From the NCBI RefSeq assembly GCF_963921235.1, contig NC_086097.1, positions 30,382,001-30,446,000 of the forward strand: 64,000 bases of DNA, read 5' to 3'. The notes under the pieces are model-generated. The model did no database searches. It was not told the origin of the DNA and saw nothing but the letters and a program-made list of their open reading frames with translations. Each line of letters starts with the position of its first letter. Position 1 is the stretch's first letter. Positions 860-60,800 of this stretch are shown piece after piece. The position numbers were made by a program, and so were the translations under genes. The stretch comes from Mobula hypostoma. Lineage: Eukaryota.

Positions 860-1412
860 CTGGGGGAACACAGCAGGTCAGGCAGCATCTATGGAAAGGA
901 ATAAACAGTCGATGCTGTGGGCCGCGACCCTTCATCAGAACTGGGAAGGAAAAGGGAAGGAGACAGAATAAGACGTTGGAGGAAGGAGAAGGAGTACGAG
1001 CTAGAAGGTGATAGGTGAAGCCAGGTAAGTGGATGGGGCATGGGGGGATGAAATGAGAAGCTGGGAAGTGATAGGTGGAAAAGGTAAATGGGTGAGGAAG
1101 GAGGAATCTGATAGGAGAGTGGACCGTGGGAGAAAGGGGAAGAGGAGGGGCATCAAAGGGAGGTGATGGGCAAGTGAAGAGGAGAGAAGAAGAAAGAAGG
1201 GGAGCCAGAATGGGGAATGGAAGCCGGGGGTTGGGGGGGAGAGAAGTTACCAGAAGTTAGAGAAATCGATATTGATGCCATCAAGTTGGAAGCTACCCAG
1301 CCAGAATATGAGGTGTTGCTCCTCCAACCTGAGAGTGGCCTCATTCTGGCAGTAGAGCACCCTCCAGCACTCTGTGTGTGCGACTCTGGATTCCCAGCAG
1401 CCGCAGAATCCC
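860..1412 (-). mobile_element. Old Penelope-like fragment (end of GIY-YIG + pLTR) with a short inverted terminal piece at ~1361-1412
   Basis: ORF 1247-1468 contains EATLRLEEQHLIFWLGSFQLDGINIDFSNF. Degenerate hammerhead at ~907-942. Confidence 0.8.
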
Positions 1413-1900: not shown

Positions 1901-2474
1901 GTTTTGATTTGTTCTATGTGAATTCTCTTGTAAAAACTGTGAATAATTTATGCTTAACGAATGTTTTTCTTCTGAATGCTTTTATCTGATGCTCTGCACC
2001 AGTGATGCTGCTGCAAGCAAATTTTTCATTGCACCTGCACACACACGTACTTGCGCGTTTGCCAATAAGACTGATCGTTGATTAGCTGTCCATGTACAGG
2101 AAGCACTTGCAGTCGTACAGTATTAATCATGTTTTAATTTGAATTTATTCACTGCCTTGTAAATGCTGAGTTTGCACTTTGTGTTCTTGTTGTGTAAATA
2201 AACTTTTGTAGTTTTATAAAAGAAACACTGATAGTCATTCCTTTGGACCTCAAAGAGTATGTTGGTCTTCATTGCAAGAAGATTAAACTACATAAAACAC
2301 TGTGTGGTTAAGAGAGCGTATGGTGCGTTGATCTTTATTAATTCAAAGCCACAAGGTAATGTGGCTCTATAAAGCTCTGCACAAGGAATTCTGCAGATGC
2401 TGGAAATTCAAGCAACACACATAAAAGTTGCTGGTGAACGCAGCAGGCCAGGCAGCATCTCTAAGAAGAGGTAC

Positions 2475-2510
2475 AGTCGACGTTTCAGGCCGAGACCCTT
2501 CGTCAGGACT
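2475..2510 (-). ncRNA. Minimal type-I hammerhead ribozyme motif (Penelope pLTR), intact core
   Basis: Minus strand reads AGTC-CTGACGA-AGGGTCTCGGCCT-GAAAC-GTC-GACT: stem I AGTC/GACT, CUGANGA and GAAA cores, GUC cleavage triplet, palindromic ACGU stem III. Confidence 0.8.
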
Positions 2511-4096
2511 AACTGAAGGAAGAGCTAGTAAGAGATTTGAAAGTGGGAGGGGGAGGGGGAGATCTGAAATGATAGGAGAAGACAGGAGGGGGAGGGATGG
2601 AGCCAAGAGTCGGACAGGTGATAGGCAAAAGGGGTATGAGAGGATCATGGGACAGGAGGCCCAGGGAGAAGGAAAAAGGGGAGGGGGGAAAAAACCCAGA
2701 GGATGGGCAAGGGGTATAGTGAGAAGGACAGAGGGAGAAAAAGGAGAGAGAGGGAAAGAATGCATGTATATAAATAAATAACGGATGGGGTACAAGGGGG
2801 AGGTGGGGCATTAGCTGAAGTTTGAGAAGTCAATGTTCATGCCATCAGGTTGGAGGCTACCCAGACGGAATATAAGGTGTTGTTCCTCCAACCTGAGTGT
2901 GGCTTCATCTTTACAGCAGAGGAGGCCGTGGATAGACATGTCAGAATGGGAATGGAACGTAGAATTAAAATGTGTGGCCACTGGGAGATCCTGCTGATGA
3001 GATGATGATGAGGATGAGGCTTTTCATTCCAGGATGAGGGAGATGTCCTCCTTTTTTAAAGAAAGGGGATTCCCTTCCTCCACCATCAACTCTGCTCTCA
3101 AACGCATCTCCCCCATTTCACGCCTATCTGCTCTCACTCGATCCTCCCGCCACCCCACTAGGAATAGGTTTCCCCTTGTCCTCACCTCCTCACCTTGTCC
3201 TACCCCACCAGCCTCCGGGTCCAACATATTATTCTCCGTAACTTCCGCCACCTCCAACGGGATCCCACCACTAAACACATCTTTCCCTCCCTCCCTCTCT
3301 GCTTTCCGCAGGGATCGCTCCCTACATGACTCCCTTGTCCATTCATTTCCCCCCCATCCCTCCCCACTGATCTCTCTCCTGGCACTTATCTGTGTAAGCA
3401 GAACAAGTGCTACACATGCCCTTACACTTCCTCCCTTACCACCATTCAGGGCCCCAGACAGCTCTTCCAGGTAAGGCGACACTTCACCTGTGAGTCGGCT
3501 GGGGTGATATACTGCGTCCGGTGCTCCCGATGTGGCCTTCTATATATTGGCGAGACCCGTCGCAGACTGGGAGATCGTTTCGCTGAAAACCTACACTCTG
3601 TCCGCCAGAGAAAGCAGGATCTCCCAGTGGCCACACATTTTAATTCCACGTCCCATTCCCATTCTGATATGTCTATCCACGGCCTCCTCTACTGTAAAGA
3701 TGAAGCCACATTCAGGTTGGAGGAACAACACCTTATATTCCGTCTGGGTAGCCTCCAACCTGATGGAATGAACATTGACTTCTCAACCTTCTGCTAATGC
3801 CCCACATCCCCCTCGTACCCCATCCGTTATTTATTTATATACATACATTCTTTCCCTCTCTCTCCTTTTTCTCCCTCTGTCCTTCTCACTATACCCCTTG
3901 CCCATCCTCTGGGTTTTTCCCCCCTCCCCTTTTTCCTTCTCCCTGGGCCTCCTGTCCCATGATCCTCTCATATCCCTTTTGCCAATCACCTGTCCAGCTC
4001 TTGGCTCCATCCCTCCCCCTCCTGTCTTCTCCTATCATTTCAGATCTCCCCCTCCCCCTCCAGCTTTCAAATCTCTTACTAGCTCTTCTTTCAGTT

Positions 4097-4132
4097 AGTC
4101 CTGACGAAGGGTCTCGGCCCAAAACGTCGACT
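4097..4132 (+). ncRNA. Minimal hammerhead ribozyme motif with a core mutation (GAAA to AAAA at 4121)
   Basis: AGTC-CTGACGA-AGGGTCTCGGCCC-AAAAC-GTC-GACT. Confidence 0.7.
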
Positions 4133-5059
4133 GTACCTCTTCCTAGAGATGCTGCCTGGCCTGCTGCGTTCACCAGCAACTTTGATATGTGTTGCTATAA
4201 AGCTCTGGGTGGCCACACAGAGAAGTGTGTTCAGTTCTGGGCGCCTCATTATAGGGAGGATATGGAAGTTTTAGAGAGGGTGCAGAGGAGATTTACTAGG
4301 ATGTCGCCTACTTTAGAGGACATGCCTTGAGAATAGGTTGAGTGAGCTGGGGCTTTTTGCTCTGGCGTGGAGGAGGAGGAGGAGAGTTGACCTGATGGAG
4401 GTGTAGAAGAATATGAGAGGCTTAGGTAGAGTGGAGAGCCAGAGACTTTTCCTGGGGCAGGAACGGGTAATACATGGGGGCTTTGTTTTCAGGTGATTCG
4501 AGGAAAGTATAGGGAGTCTGTACTGTGCTTCCTGCAAGGAGTTAGGCTACTATGTAGGGCTGGTCTCTTTACTCTGAGCAGGACACTTTGGGTCACAAAC
4601 CTCTAAGCTACCTTTGCCCTCCTTTCAGCGTATCGTAGACTTCTCCTTTTCGCAGTGTTATTTTCTACAGACATAGAGATCTGTGCAACAAAGGAACTGA
4701 ACCTTCAGTCCTCGTTGTGTGCTAAACTAATTAAATTCCTAACTAAATTTACCCCTTCTCCCTGCACAATGTCCATGTCCTTCCACTCTTTACACTGTAA
4801 AGAATGTAGACATCAGTACAAGACTGAAGATGTCTCATTGTAATTACGTAGAGAACTGGTGAGGCCGCGGCTGCAATACTGTGTGCAGGGTCTGACGGGT
4901 AGAGAAGGTACAGAGAAGTTCACTAAAGTGGATCCTGGGACAGAGTATTTACCCTCCGAGATTAATCAGACTGGGTCTGTATACTCGAGGGTTCTGGGCA
5001 ACATGAGGTGATTGTATTGAGATGTTCAAAATTCTGAAGTTAAAGTTTCAAAGTAAGGA

Positions 5060-13145: not shown

Positions 13146-13406
13146 TACTAGCAGAACTTCGAGTTGATTTCACCATGTATCGATCATTGGAATGGAAATG
13201 TAACAACAACTGGGGACAAAGTCTTGGCAAATTATAAACACGAGCGATCCTGCAGATGCTGGAAATCCAGAGCAACGCACACAAAATGCTGGAGGAACTC
13301 AGCAGGTCAGGCAGCATCAGTGGAGGGCAATAAACGAGGCCTGGTGAAGGGTCTTGGGGTCTTGGCCTTATCCATCAGCTGTTTATTTGCCTCTGCAGAT
13401 ACTGCC

Positions 13407-18345: not shown

Positions 18346-20427
18346 AGGCAATACCCGTGTTGTCGATGGTGGTTACAGTGTGCTCCAGCCAAACAAAGGA
18401 ACTGGAAGCAGGAAACAGCCATCCAGTCTTCATGCCTGTATGACATGCAATGCCATCCGACTGCGAGCTCAACTCTGTGGTATCGGAACTGGAACTGGTC
18501 TATCATTGTAATATATTTTACTGCCAACCGTGACCGACGAGGGAAGTCAAAGAGAGGGCATATAATAGAACAAAAATTAGTGGCAAGTTAGAGGATTGGG
18601 AAGCTTTTAAAAAAACCAAAAGAAGGCAAGTAAAAAAACCATGGTGGAGGAAGATGAAAAATGAATGTAAGCTAGTCATTAATATTAAAAACCACACCAA
18701 AAGTGTTTTTAGATATATAGAGTAAAAGAGAGGCAAGGGTAGATACTAGACTGCTGGAAAAATCACTGGAGAGATGGTAATGGGGATCAAGGATATGGTG
18801 GATGAACTGAATAAGTCATAAACAAGAGGAAATCTGCAGATGCTGGAAATCCGAGCAACACACACAAAATGCTGAAGGAACTCAGCAAGCCAGGCAGCAT
18901 CTATGGAAAAAGGTACGGTCGACATTTCAGCTGTGGAGGCCAAGTCACTGGGTATACTTAAGGTGGAGGTCGCTAGGTTCTTGATGAGTCAAGGCGCAAA
19001 AGGTTACAGGGAGAAAGCAGGAGCCTGGCGTTGAGACGGAAGTGGACTCAATGGGCTGAATGGCCTAATGTCTTATGGTTTTATGCACTGGGGTAGTGAA
19101 GAGCTGATCTTGCATACTGTTCATACACATTACACAGTGCATTGAGGTAGGACAAGGTAAAATACTAACCGCAATGAACCCTTTAGACCAGCGAGGGGCG
19201 CCGCAGAGTGGCAGGTTTTGACACACCTGAACATCATCAATTTGAGTTTACTAGAGTTGTTTAAAGACTACTTTTATCATTAAGCTGTCACTGTGTTTTT
19301 TGCAACATTCATTATGTGAATATGGTATCCTTATGCTTCTCTTTGTTAACTGACTAGTTTTCGACTTCGACCCGCATGGGTTTCCTGTGTTTTATGCTCT
19401 ATTGAAGGTTATTCTGGACAACAATCATCACTGAGTCCTGGATTGAAGATCTGTGTGATCTGCAGTTCTGTGTGCTCAAGTCTCAATTCAGTGAGTTCTT
19501 AGTTTGATTATTTCCTGTATTATTCTCCAAATGAATCTTCATCGTTAATTTCTACTATCGAGTCCACACCTGGGACTGCTCATCTGAGGTTGTTATGGCA
19601 GGACTCAGCCGATCATGGACTCAGTGGGGTTTGATCTATGGGCAATCTGCTGTAACAATTCCAGCGCCAACATAGCATGCCCACAAAGATAAGCAGAACA
19701 TAACAAGCAACAAAGCAACAACAGCGGATCTAGCCCTGTTCCTCCCTCCCACCCAAAGTCCTCCAGGCTTCAATCTCATAGTCATAGTCATAGTCATACT
19801 TTATTGATCCCGGGGGAAATCTGACTTCAGATCGACCTTTGAACTTCGATCTTCAGTATCAATCCACCCACACTCGCCATGGTGACGAACACGGACCCTG
19901 AACAAGAACCCAAACTCCGGACTTGCCAATGACAGAAGCCCAAAGACTAGGCCTTAAACTCCAGTCTCAGAACAGAATAAATAGCTCCTGAAAAAGTGTG
20001 GCACCTTAAACACAAAGTATATATCTACCTCTGCTTCAAAAAATAGCCAAAGAATATGCTTCCACCCACTACCCTTTGAGGAAGAGAGTTGCAAAAACTT
20101 TTAATCTCTATTTTTAAGAGAGCCAATCCCAGTGCAGAGCCATTTCAGTCGTTCCTCCACCTCAGCAGCAGCGGTGGTCAATCACATTCCTGAAGCCAAT
20201 GATCAATGCTGCCATCTCCTGGTCTCAAGAGTAAATTCAGACTCTGCTTTCCGCCAACCATTAGATTAAAGACCAGAAGTGTGTCAGTCAGACCTTTGAG
20301 TCTGCTCCACCATTCAATTATGTACCAGGGTTTTAACTTCATTCTCCTGCTTTCTCCTCTAACCCTTAGACCTCTTACCAATCAAGGATCTGTCAGTCTC
20401 TGCCTTGGCCTCTGCAGCCATGTGGAT

Positions 20428-27670: not shown

Positions 27671-28159
27671 TTGATTCCGCTCATCTCCCTTCGAAACCTT
27701 TCCAATCCACGTATATGTCTAATACCTTTCAAGTGTCGCGATTGTACCAACCTCTGCCACGTCCTCTGGCAGCCGATTCCATTTGCGGACCACTCTGGGT
27801 GAAAAAGATGCCTCTCAGGTTCCTGTGAAGTCGCTCACCTCTCACCTTAAACCTGCACCCTCTAGTCCTTGTGTCCCCAGTCCTGGGGAAAAAGACCGAG
27901 GCATTCACCTAACCTGCCTAACTCTCTCCATAACTCGGTCTCTGAAGTCCCAGCAATATCCTCAGAATTCTCCTCTGCACTCTTTATAGTCTCAAAGTCA
28001 AAGCAAATTTATTATCAAAGAACATATGTGTCACCATATACAACCTAGATATTCATTTTGCTGCAGGCATTTACAGGAAAATAAATACAATAGAATTTAT
28101 GCAAATCTGTATCAAAGACTGGCAAACAACAAATGTTCGAAAGAAGGTAATTGTATATT

Positions 28160-29101
28160 CCGCCACCTCCAACGGGATCCCACCACTAAGCATATCTTTC
28201 CCTCCCCCCCTCTCTCTGCATTCCGCAGGGATCGCTCCCTACACAACTCCCTTGTCCATTCGTCCCCCCCATCCCTCCCCACTGATCTCCCTCCTGGCAC
28301 TTATCCGTGTAAGCGGAACAAGTGCTACACATGCCCTTACACTTCCTCCCTTACCACCATTCAGGGCCCCAAACAGTCCTTCCAGGTGAGGCATCACTTC
28401 ACCTGTGAGTCGACTGGGGTGATATACTGCGTCCGGTGCTCCCGATGTGGCCTTTTATATATTGGTGAGACCCGACGCAGACTGGGAGACCGCTTTGCTG
28501 AACATCTACGCTCTGTCCGCCAGAGAAAGCAGGATCTCCCAGTGGCCACACATTTTAATTCCACATCCCATTCCCATTCTGACATGTCTATCCACGGCCT
28601 CCTCTACTGTAAAGATGAAGCCACACTCAGGTTGGAGCAACAACACCTTATATTCCGTATGGGTACCCTCCAACCTGATGGCATGAACATTGACTTCTCT
28701 AACTTCCGCTAGGCCCCACCTCCCCCTCGTTCCCCATCTGTTACTCTTTTTAATGCACACATTCTTTCTCTCACTCTCCTTTTTCTCCCTCTGTCCCTCT
28801 GAATATACCTCTTGCCCATCCTCTGGGTCACCCCCCCCCCCGTCTTTCTTCCCGGACCTCCTGTCCCATGATCCTCTCATATCCCTTCTGCCTATCACCT
28901 GTCCAGCTCTCGGCTCCATCCCTCCCCCTCCTGTCTTCTCCTATCATTTTGCATCTCCCCCTCCCCCTCCAGCTTTCAAATCCCTTGCTCACTCTTCCTT
29001 CGGTTAGTCCTGACGAAGGGTCTCGGCCTGAAACGTCGACTGCGCCTCTTCCTAGAGATGCTGCCTGGCCTGCTGCGTTCACCAGCAACTTTGATGTATG
29101 T
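28160..29101 (+). mobile_element. Neptune-type Penelope-like element, 5'-truncated, with intact GIY-YIG frame
   Basis: GTYPCKRNKCYTCPY Cys linker and GVIYCVRCSRCGLLYIGETRRRLGDRFAEH, open to the stop at 28712. 12-bp TSD TAATTGTATATT (28148-28159, 29102-29113). Hammerhead at the 3' end. Confidence 0.93.
29006..29041 (+). ncRNA. Minimal type-I hammerhead ribozyme motif (Penelope pLTR), intact core
   Basis: AGTC-CTGACGA-AGGGTCTCGGCCT-GAAAC-GTC-GACT, identical to the reverse complement of 2475-2510. Confidence 0.8.
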
Positions 29102-29114
29102 TAATTGTATATTA

Positions 29115-29965
29115 TTGGCATTTTCCCTATAGCAGGGTGACCAGAACTGAACACAATCTTCCCAATGAGGCCTCACCAACATCTTGTACAGCAGCAACAT
29201 AACATCCCAGCTTCTGTATTCAATGCCCTGACCGATAAAGGCCAGTGTGCTAAATGCCTTCTTCCCCTTCTTCATTTCTAGTCCTCCTGAAATGAATGCT
29301 AACATTGCATTTGCCTTCCTCACTACAGGCTCAGCTTGCAAATTAATCTTTAAGGGATCCTGCACAAGGACTCCCAAGTCCCTTTACACCTCACTTTTTG
29401 TATTCTTCTCCATTTAGAAAATAGTCATCATTTCATTTCTTCTGCCAAAGTGCATGACTGAACACTTCCCAAAGTTTTATCCCATCTGCCATTTCTTTAC
29501 TCATTTTCCCAATATGTCTAAGTCCTTCTGTAGCCTCTCTACTTCCTCAAAACTACCTGCCACTCCACTATCTTCATATTGGTCCCAACACAGTCCCCTG
29601 TGGAACACCCCTAGTCACCAGAAGCCAGCCAGAAAGACTCCCTTTATTCCCACTCTCTGCCAATCAGCCATTTCTTTATCCGTGCTAGAATCTTTCCTGT
29701 AATACCATGGGCTCATAGTTTGTTAAGCAGCCTCATGTGTGGCACCTTGTCAAAGGCCTTCTGAAAATCCAAGTTCACAACATCGACTGATTCTCCTTTG
29801 TCTATCCTGCTTGTTATGTCTTCAGATAATTCCAACAGAGTTGTCAGGCAAGATCTTCCCTTGAGGAAACCATGCTGACGATGGCCTATTTTATTATGTG
29901 TCAAGTACCCTGAGGCCTCATCCTTAAAGATTGGTTCCAACATCTTCCCAACCACTGAGGTCTGA
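29115..29965 (-). mobile_element. Degenerate CR1 fragments
   Basis: QHGFLKGRSCLT, LDFQKAFDKVPH. Confidence 0.85.
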
Positions 29966-30394
29966 CTCTCTTCCTGGAGGAAAAAAGACTATGAACATTC
30001 ATCCTGCCTACACCCCTCGTGATTTTATACATGAAGCCACTTCAGAAAGGAGCTCTGTAACACCTCCTGGTGCAAAGGATGAACTAGGCACTATTAAAAG
30101 GTAGGCTCTTTCTATGTGGCTGTAAATTGGTAAACCTGACAACAAGGAAAGAGAAAAGTAGGCAAGTCCCTTGATATCCCTCAAGTGGGCTGGCACAATA
30201 GCATAGCTACTTGCATAAGATCAGGGTTCAATTCCCGACATTCTCTGTAATGTTCTCCCCGTGGTTCAGTTTCATCCCTCAGTCCAAAGATGTACTGGTT
30301 AGCGTTAGTGAGTTGTGGGCATCCTATTGTTGGCACTGATGGCAATACTTGCAAACTGGTCCTAGCACATCCTCACACTGCCAACTTACGGGAG

Positions 30395-31857
30395 GACGAT
30401 GATCTTTCAAGAATCGCTAGATTCTGGCATTGTACCAGATGACTGGAAAATTGCAATTACTCCGCTATTTAAGAAGGGTGGGAGGCAGCAGAAAGGAAAC
30501 TATAGACCTGTTAGCCTGACATCAGTGGTTGGGAAGTTGTTGGAATCGATTGTTAGGGATGAGATTACGGAATACCTGGAGGCATATGACAAGATAGGCC
30601 AAAGCCAGCATGGTTTCCTGCAATTCTTTGAGGAAATTACAAGCAGGGTGGACAAAGGAGATGCTGTAGATGTGGTGTACTTGGATTTTCAGAAGGCCTT
30701 TGACAAGGTGCCGCACATGAGGCTGCTTAGCAAGATAAGAGCCCATGGAATTACAGGGATGTTACTAGCTTGGGTGGAGCATTGGCTGGTCAGCAGAAAA
30801 CAGAGAGTGGGAATAAAGGGATTCTATCCTGGCTGGCTGCCGGTTACCAGTGGAGTTCCACAGGGGTCGGTGTTGGGACTGCTGCTTTTTACTATGTATG
30901 TCAATGATATGGACTACATTATTAATAGATTTGTGGCTAAATTTGCCAATGATACAAAGATAGTTGGAGGAGCGGGTAGTGTTGAGGTAACAGAGCCTGC
31001 AGAGAAATTTAGATAGTTTAGGGGAATGGGCAAAAAAGTGGCAAACAAAATACAATGTTGGAAAGTGTATGGTCATGCACTTTGGTGGAAGAAAGACTAT
31101 TATTTTGATGGGGAGAGAATTCAAAATGCAGAGATGCAAAGGGACTTGGGAGTCCTTGTGCAAGATACCCTAAAGGTTAACCTCCAGGTTGAGAAGGGCG
31201 TGAAGAAGGCGAACGCAATGTTGGCACTCATTTCTAGAGGTATAGAATATAAGAGCAGGGATGTGATGTTGAGGCTCTACAAGGCACCTGAGACCACACT
31301 TGGAATATTGTGTGCAGTTTTGGGCTCCTTATTTTAGAAAGGATATACTGTACTGACATTGGAGAGGGTTCAGAGAAGATTCACGAGAATGATTCCAGGA
31401 ATGAAAGGGTTACTGTATGAAGAACATCTGGCAGATCTTGGGCTGTATTCCCTGGAGTTCAGGAGAATAAGGGGGGATCTCATAGAGACATTCCGAATGT
31501 TAAAAGGCCTGAACAGATTAGATATGGCAAAGTTATTTCCCATGTAGGAGATTCTAGGACAAGAGGGCATGATTGAAGGACGTCCTTTTAGAACTGAGAT
31601 GCAGAGAAATTACTTTAGTCAGAGGGTGGTAAATCTGTGGAATTTGTTGCCATGAGCAGCTGTGGAGGCCGTCATTGGGTGTATTTAAGGCAGAGATAGA
31701 TAGGTTATTGATTAGCCAGGGTATCAAAGGGTATAGGGTGAAAGCAGGGGCGTGGGGATGACTGGAAGAAATGGATCAGCCCATGATTGAATGGTGGAGC
31801 AGACTCGATGGGCCGAATGGCCTACTTCTGCTCCTATATCTTATGGTCTTATGGTCT
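30395..31857 (+). mobile_element. CR1 LINE (RT to 3' end), frameshifted
   Basis: NYRPVSLTSVVGK, GVPQGSVLG; (TCTTATGG)n tail at ~31839-31857. Confidence 0.92.
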
Positions 31858-42428: not shown

Positions 42429-43669
42429 CAAGGGGATAAGTATATGGTAATATATTCATACTTCCATAATAAATTTACTGTGAACTTTAATTTGTAGAAG
42501 TTTGTGTGGTCAATTACTAGAGGATGTACATTTAAGGTGGGTGGGGGAAAAGAGAGAATAATCAAAGGAGATGGGTGGATCAAGTTCTTTTTACACAGAG
42601 AGTGTGGATGCCTGGAACAGGCTATCAGGAGTGGTGGCCAAGGTAGATATACTGTACCAGCATTAAAGAGAGTTAGGGATATCGATATGCACACCATTGA
42701 GAGATATGGATCATGTGCAGGCAGAAGGGATGAGCTCAATTTAACACAACATTGTGGGTCGAAGGGTCTTCCCCTGTACTCTACTGTTCTTTGTTGACTA
42801 AGTAGTTCGTAGATTACTTGGGAACCTGAGATCCAAATATGGACATAGCAGCAACACACACAAAATGCTGGAGGAAGTCGGCAGGTCAGACAGCATCTAT
42901 GGAAATGAATAAACAATCAACATTTCAGGCTGCGACTCTTCATTAGGACACTCACAGGACAGAGGGAAAGATTCACAAAAAGATTTTTTTTAAGATTAGC
43001 TTTATTTGTCACATGTACATTGAAACATACATTGAAATGTTTTGTTTACGTCAATGACCAACGTAGCCAGAGGATGAGCCCACAGGCAGCCACAAGCGTC
43101 ACCATGCTTCCAACGCCAACATAGCATGTCCACAACTCATTAACGCTTACATCTCTGGAATGTGGGAGGAAACTGGAGCACCCAGAGGAAGACCACACAG
43201 TGAAGGGGAGAATGTACAAGCTCCTGACAGACGGTGGCTGGAATTGAACCCCAATCACTGATGCTGTAAAGCGCTACACTACCATGTCACATACAGCTGG
43301 TTTGGTCACAAGGGGAGCATGCTCCTCTCAACTTGCCGTGTATTCACGGCCCAAGAAACCCAGCAGCAAGAGAACTCAGCATGGAGCCAGGAACGGCAAA
43401 CTCCAGCATTGATTGACAAGGCGAGGTGCAGATAGTTTACAGGAACCAGCGTTATCTGACAGAGCAGCAAAGGAAAACATGTTATCAGAGATGATAACAT
43501 CTCTGAGCGAAACCACTATCTCTGCTTACGAGGAATGTGCTCAGAGCCTCAAACATCATCACAAGGCAGGCATTGCTCAGCTGCCTTCAATACCTGTCAC
43601 TGGCACAGCAGCTCAATGCTAGTGCAACTAAAAGTTCAAATTCAAAGGAAATTTATTATTAAATATATA

Positions 43670-44830: not shown

Positions 44831-45429
44831 GATGATAGTTTACAAAACACAAGAGTATTCCAATTGTGGAGCTCCAATTTGTTGCTCCTGTACAACTCTA
44901 GCAGTCCCCATGTGTTCACTCCTCTGTAGTACAATATCTAATTCTTGATGGTCTAGTTGTAAGGATCCCTGCCTGTCGATCGGGAGACCAGGATACAATT
45001 CCCCACTGGGGAGGATATTTTTAGGGTGGCATGGTTGTGTGATGTTTTACGGTGTTAATAGTAAGATCAGGGTTCAATTCCTGCCAGTGTCTGTAAGGAG
45101 TTCGTATGTTCTCTCCGTGACTGTGTGGGTTTCCCCTGGGTGCTCCAGTTTCCTCCCACATTCCAAAGCCGTACAGGTTAGTAAGTTGTGAGCACAATAC
45201 GTTGGCACCAGAAGCCTTTCTGCACTTGCAGTCTCGTCCTCAGACTGTGTTGGTAGTTGACACAAACAAGGTGTTTGACTGCCTGTTTCAATGTACATGT
45301 GACATTTTTATTTCCATCGCCAGCATGCCTTTTAATGAAGCTCCCCAGTCAATGGTAGTCAACAAACCAGTCATATGTTTAATTTTCTTTGGATTTAGGA
45401 CCCTGCTTTTGATTTCAACCATATAATCA

Positions 45430-45850
45430 GGAGATTCTGCAGATGCTGGAAATCTTGAACAAAACAGAAACTTCTAGAGGAACTCAGCAAGTCAGGCAGC
45501 AGCCTGACAACCAGGCAGAAGCCAAAATAAGGAGGTGAGGGGAGGGGAGGGGAGGAGAGAAAAGCTGGCAGGTGATATTTTGAGACCAATTGAGGGGAAG
45601 GGTGGGGGAGGGGTTGAAGCAAAGAGCTGGGAGGTGATAGGCAGAAGAAGAGCTGAAGGAGGAGGAATCTGATAGAGAATGGACTATGGGAGAAGGGGAA
45701 GGAGAACCACAATTGGGAATAGAAAATGAGGGGGGGGGGAGAAATTCACATTCATCAACCTTCCCCCTCACTTGGTCTTTCCAAGTTTGTACTCCTTCCA
45801 CTATCCCCACCTTCTTATTCTGGCTTCTGTCTGTCTTTTCCAGTCCATCA
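45430..45850. mobile_element. Old Penelope pLTR remnants in inverted arrangement
   Basis: TCTGCAGATGCTGGAAATC...GGAACTCAGC and purine-rich pLTR on the minus strand, then a pyrimidine-rich plus-strand copy. Confidence 0.6.
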
Positions 45851-47580: not shown

Positions 47581-48779
47581 ATTAGTTCCCTCCATAGATG
47601 CAGCCTGACCTGCTGAGTTTTTACAGCTCTTTCTGCATGGTGGTTTGAACTGCTATTTATTGCTAGAGACATTCAATATAAAAGCAAAGAGGTAACTCTG
47701 TAAAAGGCATCACGAAGACCTCAAGAATGCATCAATTATCAGACTCTCACCATCCAGGTCATGCCAGCTTCTCGCAGCTACCATAGGGCAGGAAGTGCAG
47801 AAGCCTGATGTCCCACACCAGCAGGTTAAGCTAACAGTCACTTCACTTCAACCATTTGGTTTAATAACCCATCGGGAAACCTAATCACTAGTTTAGCAAC
47901 ACTATGACACTGTAGTATGATGGTGGTACTGTAACATAGCAATTAGAAAAATGCTTTACTGTACCAGTGATCAGAATTCAATTCCATCTCTAAGGAGTTT
48001 GTATGTTCTCCCCATGACCACATGGGTTTCTGCTGGGTGCTCCTGCATCCTCCCACATTCCAAAGACATGTGGATTAAGGTTCTAAGTTGTGGGCATGCT
48101 AGTTTAGCACTAGATGCATGGTGACACTTGTGTGCTGCTCCCAGTACATCCTTGGACTATTTTGGTCATTGATGCAAATTACACATTTCACCATATGTTT
48201 TGACTTGTATTTGACAAAGAAAGGTCATCTGTCTTTAAGCTTTGCAGTAAAATGGGAGTTCGGATAAAGCTCCTCAGCCTGCCTTTCTATAGATATTGCC
48301 TGAACTATTGAGTTCCTCTAGCACTTTGTGCGCGTTGCTCTGGATTTCCAGCATCCACAGAATCTCACTTCTATTGTTTTCTTTTGTTTTGATTGCATTC
48401 TTTCTTTTAAAAATTGTGCATGTGTACAATTTACTGTGAGTTTTTCTTGTGAATGTTGCTTATATGATGTTACCTGCCTGTGATGCTGCTGCTGCTCAAG
48501 TCAAGTCCTGACGGCTGGAGCCAGAGTTTGTGAATCCGCTGGGGAAGGGGGGCCCAGTCTCTGCCAAGTCACGAGCCTAATGGAGGCTGAATGTGATGGT
48601 CTACACTGGGGTTAGAGGGCTGTGTACATGCATGCGTGGGGTCAGCGAGGTTGGGAGGAAGGGAGGTACAGGGACTTCTGTTGTTGCTTGTCATGTTTTG
48701 TGTTGTGTTCTGCGGAGCATTGTGGGCATGCCTTGTTGGCATCAGAATGTGTGGCAACACTTGAGGGCAGCCCCCAGCA

Positions 48780-53234: not shown

Positions 53235-53570
53235 CACGGGATTTTGCACAGATACTAGAAATCTTGAGGAACACGTACAAAATACTGGAGGAACTCAGCA
53301 GGTCAGGTAGCATCTATGGAGAAGAATGAACAGTCGATATTTCCCGCTGGATGGGAAAGGAAAGGGGCAGATGCCAGAATAAGACAGGTGAGGGGGAGTG
53401 GAGGAACACAAGTTGATAGGTGAGAGGTGAAGCCATGTGAGGGGGAAGGTGGGTGGGGGAAGAGGGATGAACTGAGAAGCTGGGAGGGGTGAGGTGAAAA
53501 TGGTAAAGGACTGAAGAACAAGGAATCTGATTGGAGAGGAGAGTGGACTATGGAAGAAATGGAGGAGAGG
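53235..53570 (-). mobile_element. Old Penelope pLTR remnant in the last jag2 intron
   Basis: CTGGAGGAACTCAGCAGGTCAGGTAGCATCTATGG followed by a purine-rich pLTR; hammerhead core eroded. Confidence 0.65.
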
Positions 53571-59299: not shown

Positions 59300-60800
59300 T
59301 ACACACAAAATGCTGGAGAAACTCAGCAGGCCAGGCAGCATCTATGGAAAAAAAATACATTTGACATTTTGGGCTGAACCCTTCAGCAGGACTGGAGAAA
59401 AAAAAATGAGGAGTAGAGTTAAAAGATGGGGGGAGAGGAGAGAGAAATACAAAGTGATAGGTGAAACCTGGAGGGAGAGAGGTGAAGTAAAGTGCTGGGA
59501 AGTTGGTTGGTGAAAGAGATACAGAACTGGAGAAGGGGGAAGCTGACAGGATAGGACAGTAGGCAATGGAAGGAAGGAAAGTGGGGAGGAGCACCAGAGG
59601 GAGATGATGGGCAGGCAAGAAGATATGGGGAGAGGGGGAAAAGAGGCTGGGAAATGTGAACGGAGAGGGGGTGGGGGTATTACTGGAAATCTGAGAAATC
59701 GATGTTCATGCCATCAGGTTGGAGGCTACCCAAACAGAATATAAGGTGTTGCTCCTCCACCCCAGTTGTGGCCTCATCACAACAGTGGAGGAGGCAACGG
59801 ATGGACACATCAGAATGGGAATGGGGAATTAAAATGGGTGGCCACTGGGAGATCCCACTTTTTCTGGAAGATGGAACGTAGGTGCTTGGCAAAGTAGTTT
59901 CCCAATCTACATCGGATCACACTGATATACAGAAGGCCACACCGGGAGCACTGGACACAGTACATGACCCAATATACTCACAGATGAAGTGTCACCTCAC
60001 CTGGAAGGACTGTTTGGGGCCATGAATGATAGTGAGGGAGGTGGTGTAGGGATAGGTGTGGCACTTGTTCCACTTGCAAGGGTAAGTGCCAGGAGGAAGA
60101 TCAGTGGGGAAGGATGAATGGACAAGGGAGTCTCATAGGGAGCATTCCATGCGGAAAGCAGAAATGGGGTGGTGGGGGTTAGAAAAGAAAGATATGCTTC
60201 GTGTAGGATCCTGCTGAAGACGGCAGAAGTTCCGGAGAATTACAGAATTATGTGCTGGACACGAAGGCTGGCAGGATGGTAAGTGGGGAGAGGAGGAATC
60301 TATCCCAGGTAGGGTGGCAGGAGGATGGGGTCAGAGCAGATGTATGTGAAATAGAAGAGATGTGGTTGAGGGCAACATTGATGGTGGAGGAAGGGAAGTT
60401 CCCTTCTTTGAAAAAGGAGGACATTTCCTTCGATCTGGAATGAAACGCCTCATCCTAACAGCAGAGTGGCAGAGACGGAGGAAGTGAGAGAAGGGAATGG
60501 CATTTTTACAAGTAACAGGGTGAGAAGAGTTATAGTCCAGGCAGCTATGAGTGTCCGTGGGTTTATAACAGACATCAGTAGATAATCTGTTTTCAGAGAT
60601 AGAGGCAGTGAGATCGAGAAAGGGGAGAAAGTGTCAGAAGTGGATCAGGTAAATTTGAAGGCAGGGTGGAAGCTGGAGGCAAAGTTGATGAAGTCAGCGA
60701 GCTCGGCATGGATGCAGGAAGCAGCACCAATGGAGTCGTCGATGTAGCGTAGGAAAAGTGTAGGACAGTCACCAGTGTAGGCTTGGAACATAGACTGTAG
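59300..60800 (-). mobile_element. Older Penelope-like element (end of RT, GIY-YIG, pLTR) in a jag2 intron
   Basis: EEQHLIFCLGSLQPDGMNIDFS; YKPTD-type segment near 60560; degenerate hammerhead 59359-59393. Confidence 0.88.

What the first reader, a model, noticed from the sequence alone, without database searches (positions are those of the whole stretch)
29006..29041. Intact minimal hammerhead ribozyme at the 3' end of a young Penelope element
Seen: AGTC CTGACGA AGGGTCTCGGCCT GAAAC GTC GACT, i.e. stem I (AGTC/GACT), both catalytic core strands, stem II and a GUC cleavage triplet. Stem III has no loop, only the palindrome ACGT. Established: Penelope-like elements carry minimal type-I hammerheads thought to cleave as dimers. 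Inference: this copy could self-cleave after position 29037 when paired with a second hammerhead. It lies ~300 nt after an intact GIY-YIG ORF in a TSD-bounded insertion, so the family may be recently active.
Basis: partly seen in the sequence, partly recalled or inferred. Interest (0 to 1): 0.75.

Follow-up and report, generated by a model that had tools for sequence, protein, structure and literature searches.

The report
Penelope hammerhead motif in dead copy
This is a real copy of the small self-cutting RNA motif (minimal hammerhead) that Penelope-like jumping genes are already known to carry, sitting in a shortened, dead copy of a very abundant element in what is likely a ray genome, where it is probably an inert passenger, so the catch is correct but ordinary.

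Summary
The motif is at 29006-29041 as described and is not chance: a full descriptor finds 2 copies in the window, and 1 of 300 shuffles gave any hit. It is the minimal type-I hammerhead that Cervera & de la Peña (2014) described in Penelope-like elements. It lies in the 3' repeat of a 942-bp insertion (28160-29101, 12-bp TSD) with a Neptune/Nematis-type linker, from a very abundant family; the closest named proteins are from rays.

(1) The ORF is not intact: it is 5'-truncated, has no RT, and carries Gln where relatives keep the Glu that is probably catalytic.
(2) The usually conserved G10.1-C11.1 pair is G·U here, probably by CpG decay.
(3) No intact same-strand partner lies in the window, folding predicts the core is sequestered, and the inserted DNA runs 64 nt past the cut site, so its template was apparently uncut.

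Cleavage could not be tested (no raw RNA reads), and recent activity is not shown. The scan already noted this motif many times in this genome and in shark genomes. Known kind, low interest.

The parts
28148..28159 (+). Left target-site duplication (12 bp, AT-rich); its last 2 nt (TT) are shared with the family's upstream sequence (microhomology)
   Evidence: family upstream sequence seen as loose ends at 28158
28160..29101 (+). 5'-truncated Penelope-like element copy, 942 bp, without reverse transcriptase
28161..28712 (+). Remnant of the element ORF (183 codons plus stop): linker and GIY-YIG endonuclease domain; no 5' ATG
   Evidence: Pfam GIY-YIG 23.5 bits against cut-off 22.6; 92% to a Mobula hypostoma protein that extends into RT; predicted fold closest to I-TevI, Z 9.7, rmsd 3.0, 89 aligned
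28308..28334 (+). C-x4-C-x2-C linker motif, described for Neptune and Nematis clades
   Evidence: translation; motif CX2-5CxxC in PMC8557442 passages
28638..28640 (+). Gln codon (CAA) where the family has Glu, probably the catalytic Glu of the GIY-YIG domain
   Evidence: Glu in 16 of 18 aligned relatives; G at 28638 in 96% of summed contig depth in run X1; lies in the helix after the third strand
28991..28997 (+). CU-rich tract predicted to pair with 29015-29021 and sequester G8, A9 and the 5' arm of stem II
   Evidence: RNAfold ensemble, pairing probability 0.94-0.97 with 30-300 nt of upstream context, 0.24 with 20 nt; prediction only
29005..29042 (+). Minimal type-I hammerhead motif: stem I 29005-09/29038-42, core 29010-16 and 29030-33, extra A29017, stem II 29018-21/29026-29 (G·U, G-C, G-C, U·G; loop CUCG), palindrome ACGU 29033-36, predicted cut after C29037
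29038..29101 (+). 64 nt of element sequence 3' of the predicted cut, ending at the family's common 3' end; this copy has no tail
   Evidence: loose ends at 29102 in 517 contigs of X1
29102..29113 (+). Right target-site duplication (12 bp)
2380..2995 (-). Sister copy B: inverted 5'-truncated arm with the same 38-nt hammerhead letters and a ~33-nt tail
3011..4194 (+). Sister copy A: direct arm of the same composite insertion; hammerhead core broken (G12>A), with C at 11.1
   Evidence: 13-bp TSD at 2367-79 / 4195-4207

Best explanation
The 36 bases are a minimal type-I hammerhead motif in the 3' repeat of a 5'-truncated, TSD-bounded Penelope-like retrotransposon copy, and at this locus the motif is likely an inert passenger that was copied in uncut. 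Shown: the motif; the 942-bp insertion with its 12-bp TSD; the GIY-YIG remnant without RT; the Glu>Gln codon; sister copies with an inverted arm and a tail; very high family abundance. Inferred mechanism of insertion: the element's endonuclease nicked AT-rich DNA; reverse transcription began on element RNA 64 nt 3' of the hammerhead cut site, ran across the uncut ribozyme and stopped after 942 nt. Inferred for the ribozyme: with no helix III it can form an active site only by pairing two copies through ACGU, the core of one copy cutting the GUC of the other. In full tandem elements the two terminal repeats (perhaps helped by the element's protein) would supply this and process the precursor RNA. 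A solo copy with a G·U at 10.1-11.1, no intact same-strand neighbour and a predicted sequestering fold would cleave little or not at all.
For: Descriptor match beyond chance. The anatomy equals the published min-HHR: no helix III, palindromic 15.2-16.2, extra nucleotide after A9, stem I of 4-5 bp; the published monomer did not cleave and dimers cleaved weakly (PMC4209133). Element anatomy matches pLTR, inverted arm and tail as described in PMC8557442. In the anole element, HHR mutants did not affect insertion, unprocessed RNA was the dominant template, cleavage needed added protein, and no RNA-seq ends were found at the site (PMC11167929). Only two descriptor hits in 64 kb, on opposite strands and 26.5 kb apart; the nearest same-strand copy (24.9 kb upstream) has G12>A. 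Folding: the isolated 38-mer pairs its core GACG with CGUC (probability 0.99; open-core fraction 0.0006), and stem I forms at only 0.02-0.05 with 30-300 nt of upstream context. Family abundance: summed contig depth 2-13 million over the element against 516 in the first flank bin in X1 (not a copy number).
Against: No cleavage or RNA-end data exist here: no raw RNA reads were offered and contigs cannot show ends. Nearest-neighbour folding ignores tertiary and protein stabilisation, and I had no validated dimer hammerhead as a control. All core letters are intact in this copy. Four other CpG sites inside the motif are intact in all 3 copies (12 of 12), while 5-7 of 19 shared CpG-type sites have decayed per copy, which might reflect constraint. 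Family sequence occurs in a run guessed to be RNA (X6), so partners in trans may exist. I found no measurement of a G10.1·U11.1 variant, so its cost is inferred from conservation.
Confidence: 0.85

Rival explanations
1. This copy is a working ribozyme half: when a host transcript reads through it, it pairs in trans with one of the very many other family transcripts (or is refolded by the element's protein) and is cut after 29037.
For: Core, GUC and palindrome intact. All pairs of the dimer model are standard pairs. Family sequence is abundant in a run guessed to be RNA (18,524 contigs laid over the stretch, flanking repeats included). Protein-assisted cleavage was shown for the anole element; dimer cleavage is reported.
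Against: The inactive two-strand fold is far more stable than the active-dimer fold in the energy model (-30.3 against -11.5 kcal/mol). An upstream tract is predicted to sequester the core. G·U at 10.1-11.1. Published rates are very low even for linked dimers. Transcription of this locus is not shown.
Confidence: 0.1
2. The motif is not catalytic even in active elements of this family; it is kept as a structural or protein-binding part of the terminal repeat, or as a relic.
For: The ribozyme was dispensable for insertion in vitro. Naiad elements proliferate without canonical hammerheads. No covariation signal above shuffles in 9 aligned sequences (181 of 500 shuffles reach the score).
Against: The catalytic letters, GUC triplet and palindrome are all retained. 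Related motifs do cleave as dimers or with protein. The covariation test had little power (8 window copies, mostly decayed, plus one outside sequence).
Confidence: 0.12
3. Chance resemblance to a hammerhead.
For: The loose core pattern is within chance. No Rfam hammerhead hit. Folding z-score -0.37.
Against: The full descriptor gave a hit in 1 of 300 shuffles and the strict form in 0 of 300. The position is exactly where Penelope-like elements carry the motif.
Confidence: 0.01

Closest known systems
Minimal hammerheads (min-HHR) in pLTRs of metazoan Penelope-like elements (Cervera & de la Peña 2014, PMC4209133; read parts 1-2 of 4 and searched 2 of 3 supplementary files)
   Same: Type I, conserved core, no helix III, palindromic 15.2-16.2, extra nucleotide between 9 and 10.1, stem I 4-5 bp; mostly solo copies from truncated elements; reported in Xena, Poseidon and Neptune elements of fishes.
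   Different: G·U instead of the highly conserved G10.1-C11.1 in this copy; stem II is 4 bp (7-8 bp in the Schistosoma families). No shark, skate or ray appears in the parts read or in the two supplements searched.
PAc (Poseidon of Anolis carolinensis) hammerhead and tail (Frangieh et al. 2024, PMC11167929; read parts 1-2 of 4)
   Same: Hammerhead upstream of the RT start sites, optional tail, AT-rich target, uncut RNA used as template.
   Different: PAc is Poseidon clade and full length; this family has the Neptune/Nematis linker. Protein-assisted cleavage is untested here.
Neptune-type endonuclease-bearing Penelope-like elements (Craig et al. 2021, PMC8557442; 12 passages read)
   Same: C-terminal GIY-YIG, CxxC plus two His, CX2-5CxxC linker, inverted 5'-truncated partner, 30-40-bp tail.
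   Different: This copy lacks RT and has Gln at the conserved Glu. Neptune against Nematis was not resolved by an RT tree.
Animal non-LTR retrozymes (Li, Clavereau & Pollet 2026, bioRxiv 10.64898/2026.07.22.740005; read part 1 of 5 and passages)
   Same: Type-I hammerheads derived from Penelope pLTRs; reported in one chondrichthyan genome.
   Different: Retrozymes are non-coding tandem arrays; this is a single copy attached to an endonuclease remnant.

Membership tests
PLE minimal hammerhead (min-HHR) | Core CUGANGA ... GAAA with NUH cleavage triplet | tested here: met
PLE minimal hammerhead (min-HHR) | Type-I topology with stems I and II, no helix III, palindromic 15.2-16.2 | tested here: met
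   stem I 4 Watson-Crick pairs plus U·G; stem II 4 bp; ACGU
PLE minimal hammerhead (min-HHR) | [quoted passage not shown] | tested here: met
   A29017; this register is the more stable one (-2.3 against -1.1 kcal/mol) and is the one kept in copy A
PLE minimal hammerhead (min-HHR) | G10.1-C11.1 pair (characteristic; not part of the published descriptor) | tested here: not met
   G·U in this copy and in copy B; G-C in copy A; 4 G-C and 4 G·U among 8 aligned sequences with letters
PLE minimal hammerhead (min-HHR) | Located in the terminal repeat of a Penelope-like element | tested here: met
   293 nt after the endonuclease stop; cut site 64 nt before the element end
PLE minimal hammerhead (min-HHR) | Self-cleavage as a dimer or with protein | not testable with these tools
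   no raw RNA reads
PLE minimal hammerhead (min-HHR) | Compensatory changes in the stems across family members | tested here: inconclusive
   9 sequences, 2 of 9 pairs with a two-sided change, not above shuffles
Rfam hammerhead families | Covariance-model score at or above the gathering threshold | tested here: not met
   0 hits at gathering; none at E<=10
Endonuclease-bearing Penelope-like element | C-terminal GIY-YIG domain with CCHH motif | tested here: met
   Pfam above cut-off; C93, C96, H115, H131; fold closest to I-TevI
Endonuclease-bearing Penelope-like element | Reverse transcriptase upstream in the same ORF | tested here: inconclusive
   absent from this truncated copy; relatives at 92% and 67% extend into RT sequence with YIDD; RVT_1 hit at E 9e-05 is below its cut-off
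Endonuclease-bearing Penelope-like element | Inverted 5'-truncated partner and optional 30-40-bp tail in the family | tested here: met
   composite 2367-4207 with 13-bp TSD and ~33-nt tail; tail letters as loose ends at 29102
Neptune/Nematis clades | CX2-5CxxC linker before the endonuclease | tested here: met
   C-x4-C-x2-C at 28308-28334
Neptune clade | Placement in an RT phylogeny | not tested
Non-LTR retrozyme | Non-coding tandem repeat with a hammerhead in at least two consecutive units | tested here: not met
   single copy with a coding remnant; next same-strand copy 24.9 kb away

The most novel reading that the evidence does not exclude
In this ray family the minimal hammerhead is a gated ribozyme: its own N7=C lets the core zip onto the GUC site and an upstream CU-rich tract locks stem II, until the element protein or a second copy opens it. 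With very large numbers of near-intact copies scattered through the genome, transcripts from separate loci could pair through ACGU and cut host RNAs in trans, making rays a natural system to settle whether Penelope hammerheads cleave in vivo.
Probability: 0.07. Interest if true: 0.6.

Novelty: new member of a known kind. Interest (0 to 1): 0.14.

Why it matters
As a single copy it matters little: the motif, its location and the dimer idea are published, and this copy is dead as a transposon. The open question in the field is whether Penelope hammerheads cleave in cells and what for (unclear according to PMC8557442 and PMC11167929). A very high-copy family in a ray genome gives statistical power for that question, but the informative material is full tandem elements and RNA-end data, not this solo insertion.

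Tried and rejected
Whole-genome survey: no genome is held for this window, so no direct count of intact motifs or of the C/T share at 29029 could be made.

Rfam: no hammerhead hit.

Motif scans of public collections: 0 hits in viral contigs. One hit in metagenome contigs (L001) has core and stem II (GGGU/ACCC) but lacks the GUC and stem I 3' arm in register; it was used only as an outside row in the alignment.

Reading the family's letter at 29029 from spurious protein calls of the frame that crosses the motif: no candidates.

PDB sequence search with the endonuclease: nothing meaningful. Foldseek gave I-TevI first but only at E 0.034.

Raw DNA run X21: 0 reads laid, so no test. An empty-site joint was not among the 15 joints shown (1001 not shown), so insertion polymorphism is undecided. 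One contig of run X6 ends at 29037, but it has 13 substitutions and 6 gaps (another copy) and contig ends show no RNA ends, so I gave it no weight.

Covariation: inconclusive.

Lünse, Weinberg & Breaker (dimer cleavage of PLE hammerheads) is not held; I saw only its title and a review's account.

Searches for a print record in sharks or rays: hammerhead+shark+Penelope gave 4 listings, none on topic by title; one was checked by passage. Penelope+Chondrichthyes+genome+transposable elements+ray gave 7 listings, of which only the retrozyme preprint bears on it. File 1 of the 2014 supplements was not searchable and the preprint's supplements are closed; either may list chondrichthyan motifs.

The A10.1-U11.1 register of stem II was rejected: it is less stable and is mismatched in copy A.

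Full report
OBSERVATION. In standard hammerhead numbering (recalled; cited in PMC4209133): C3-A9 = 29010-16, extra A 29017, stem II 29018-21/29026-29, G12-A14 = 29030-32, A15.1 and C15.2 = 29033-34, G16.2 U16.1 C17 = 29035-37, stem I 29005-09/29038-42. The bare core pattern is within chance (3 matches, 13 of 100 shuffles reach 3). A descriptor that also demands both stems and the UH site finds only +29010 and -2506, identical over 38 nt; 1 of 300 shuffles gave a hit, and none did in the strict form. Rfam detects nothing; I take this to reflect the missing helix III (inference). One departure from 'intact': the pair next to the core is G29018·U29029, whereas G10.1-C11.1 is described as highly conserved in these motifs.

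THE ELEMENT. The insertion spans 28160-29101 between 12-bp direct repeats (6 of 20,000 random 40-nt pairs share a 12-mer). It starts abruptly inside the family ORF: sister copy A and loose ends of hundreds of contigs continue upstream with other letters. The 183-codon remnant holds a C-x4-C-x2-C linker and a GIY-YIG domain (Pfam 23.5 bits, cut-off 22.6). Its model (pLDDT 83.5) matches I-TevI best (Z 9.7, rmsd 3.0, 89 aligned). Of 17 proteins found among 436 longer candidates, the closest are from Mobula hypostoma (92%), Hypanus sabinus (75-82% for the best rows), whale shark (67%) and zebra shark (63%); several extend into RT sequence. The window is therefore likely from a ray (inference), and the family is a Neptune/Nematis-type Penelope-like element by the linker criterion in PMC8557442.

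THE ORF IS NOT INTACT. It has no RT and its first in-frame ATG is at residue 142. Residue 160 is Gln where 16 of 18 aligned sequences have Glu, and 96% of contig depth in run X1 has the Glu letter at 28638. That column is nearly invariant, sits in the helix after the third strand and lies 16 residues before the conserved Asn (15 in I-TevI, E75 to N90). So it is probably the metal-binding Glu. No residue-level structural alignment was returned, so this equivalence is inferred. Changes at this Glu abolish activity in I-TevI and R.Eco29kI (passages), and a PDB title names R.Eco29kI E142Q as an inactive variant.

SISTERS. At 2367-4207 a composite insertion has a 13-bp TSD, a direct arm A and an inverted 5'-truncated arm B with a ~33-nt tail. 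This is the arrangement described for Penelope-like elements; the tail is explained by two internal RT start sites. A and B differ by 23 of 580 columns (4.0%); the finding's copy differs from A by 82 of 940 and from B by 58 of 574. At 11.1-12, A reads CA (G12 lost) and B reads TG. If the arms came from one template, the source read CG, that is the canonical G-C pair with G12, and TG here is probably CpG decay (inference). Against this, two of three copies share TG while four other CpG sites in the motif are intact in all three, so TG could also be a subfamily state. One search does not settle it: 29029 is not among the 40 rows shown and 177 are hidden. At least six further decayed copies or tail relics lie in the window.

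FAMILY DATA. 278,609 contigs of DNA run X1, 244,856 of X5 and 18,524 of X6 (guessed RNA) were laid on 27900-29400; these counts include flanking repeats. Run X21 laid none. Summed depth is 2-13 million over the element against 516 in the first flank bin; the tool warns this is no copy number, but the family is plainly very abundant. The bin over the 3' half of the motif is about two to six times deeper than the rest of the element, as expected from many short 3' fragments. Twenty listed differences fall in the 942 nt; 19 are majority letters in X1 (2.0%) and 6 are at >=90% (0.64%). These are lower bounds and include subfamily differences.

AGE. The copy is young beside most repeats in the window (65-80% alike). 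At the epaulette shark rate of 7e-10 per generation (CI 1.4-14.1e-10; passages), even 0.64% is millions of generations. This is a crude estimate from another species and ignores fast CpG sites. Recent activity is neither shown nor excluded: 48,471 of the 278,609 contigs are >=99% alike to the stretch.

HOW IT LIKELY WORKS. With no helix III, two copies must pair through ACGU, and the core of one cuts the GUC of the other (model in PMC4209133; all pairs are standard). A cut at 29037 therefore needs a second intact core in the same sense. The window has none: B is antisense and 26.5 kb away, and A, 24.9 kb upstream, lacks G12. Energy models disfavour the open core. The isolated motif zips GACG onto CGUC (0.99). 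With 30-300 nt of upstream context a CU-rich tract captures the stem II arm (0.94-0.97 here; 0.16-0.97 in the sisters across contexts). The inactive duplex beats the active dimer by about 19 kcal/mol. These models omit tertiary and protein effects and had no positive control. The inserted DNA runs 64 nt past the cut site, so its template was uncut or re-ligated there (inference). This fits the anole element, where unprocessed RNA was the main template, the ribozyme was dispensable, cleavage needed protein and no RNA-seq ends mapped to the site. Published min-HHR monomers did not cleave and dimers cleaved weakly (review passages). I conclude that this copy is a passenger of a dead insertion (0.85). 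Any function belongs to tandem source elements, most likely processing of precursor RNA (hypothesis of PMC4209133, unproven).

NOVELTY. The kind is published (2014), including for Neptune elements of fishes and for solo copies in their thousands. A 2026 preprint reports hammerhead retrozymes in one chondrichthyan. My searches found no description of this ray family, with one supplement and the preprint's supplements unseen. The scan's own notes record the same motif repeatedly: 81 of 295 notes in this genome fit the words 'hammerhead Penelope' (8 shown), plus others in shark genomes. These are unchecked leads; I had stated my reading before seeing them. Papers seen: PMC4209133 parts 1-2 of 4 and 2 supplements; PMC11167929 parts 1-2 of 4; the preprint part 1 of 5 and passages; passages only for PMC8557442, PMC6155905, PMC1564403, PMC6765202, PMC1952068, PMC10587355, PMC11300833 and PMC544870; Lünse et al. 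title only.

VERDICT. Real motif, correct family, overstated context. New member of a known kind; interest 0.14.

Noticed in passing
window 2367-4207: Composite Penelope insertion with a 13-bp TSD: inverted 5'-truncated arm with tail (- strand, 2995-2380) abutting a direct arm (about 3011-4194). The arms differ by 4.0% and carry opposite CpG-decay products at the hammerhead's 11.1/12 site.
   Followed up: yes
window about 59301-60800, - strand: Older, frameshifted copy of a related subfamily (70-77% DNA identity) that extends into RT sequence; its hammerhead is degenerate.
   Followed up: partly
window 863-957, 13231-13324, 18818-18930, 42828-42949, 45422-45647, 48284-48361, 53249-53343: Short 3'-end or tail relics of related elements, with decayed or missing hammerheads.
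   Followed up: partly
window 28991-28997 with 29015-29021: CU-rich tract predicted to sequester the core and stem II in all three young copies, to differing degrees; could be a family-wide off-fold or an artefact of the energy model.
   Followed up: partly
window 29014, 29024, 29034, 29037: Four CpG sites inside the motif are intact in all three young copies (12 of 12), while the fifth (29029) is changed in all three; too few copies to tell constraint from chance.
   Followed up: partly
window 29037 (record X6:24): One contig of a run guessed to be RNA ends exactly at the predicted cut; it comes from another copy, and contig ends are not RNA ends.
   Followed up: no
protein P0008 (zebra shark model), C-terminus: The read-through tail ends in residues resembling the frame that crosses the hammerhead here (compare), hinting that shark relatives carry the same motif; seen at protein level only.
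   Followed up: no
L001 1-38, - strand: A metagenome-collection contig has the core and a fully paired stem II, but no GUC or stem I in register.
   Followed up: partly
window 30366-31016 and many other places: Numerous decayed LINE-type RT fragments (Pfam RVT_1 E 5e-19 at 30366); the window is dominated by old repeats.
   Followed up: no
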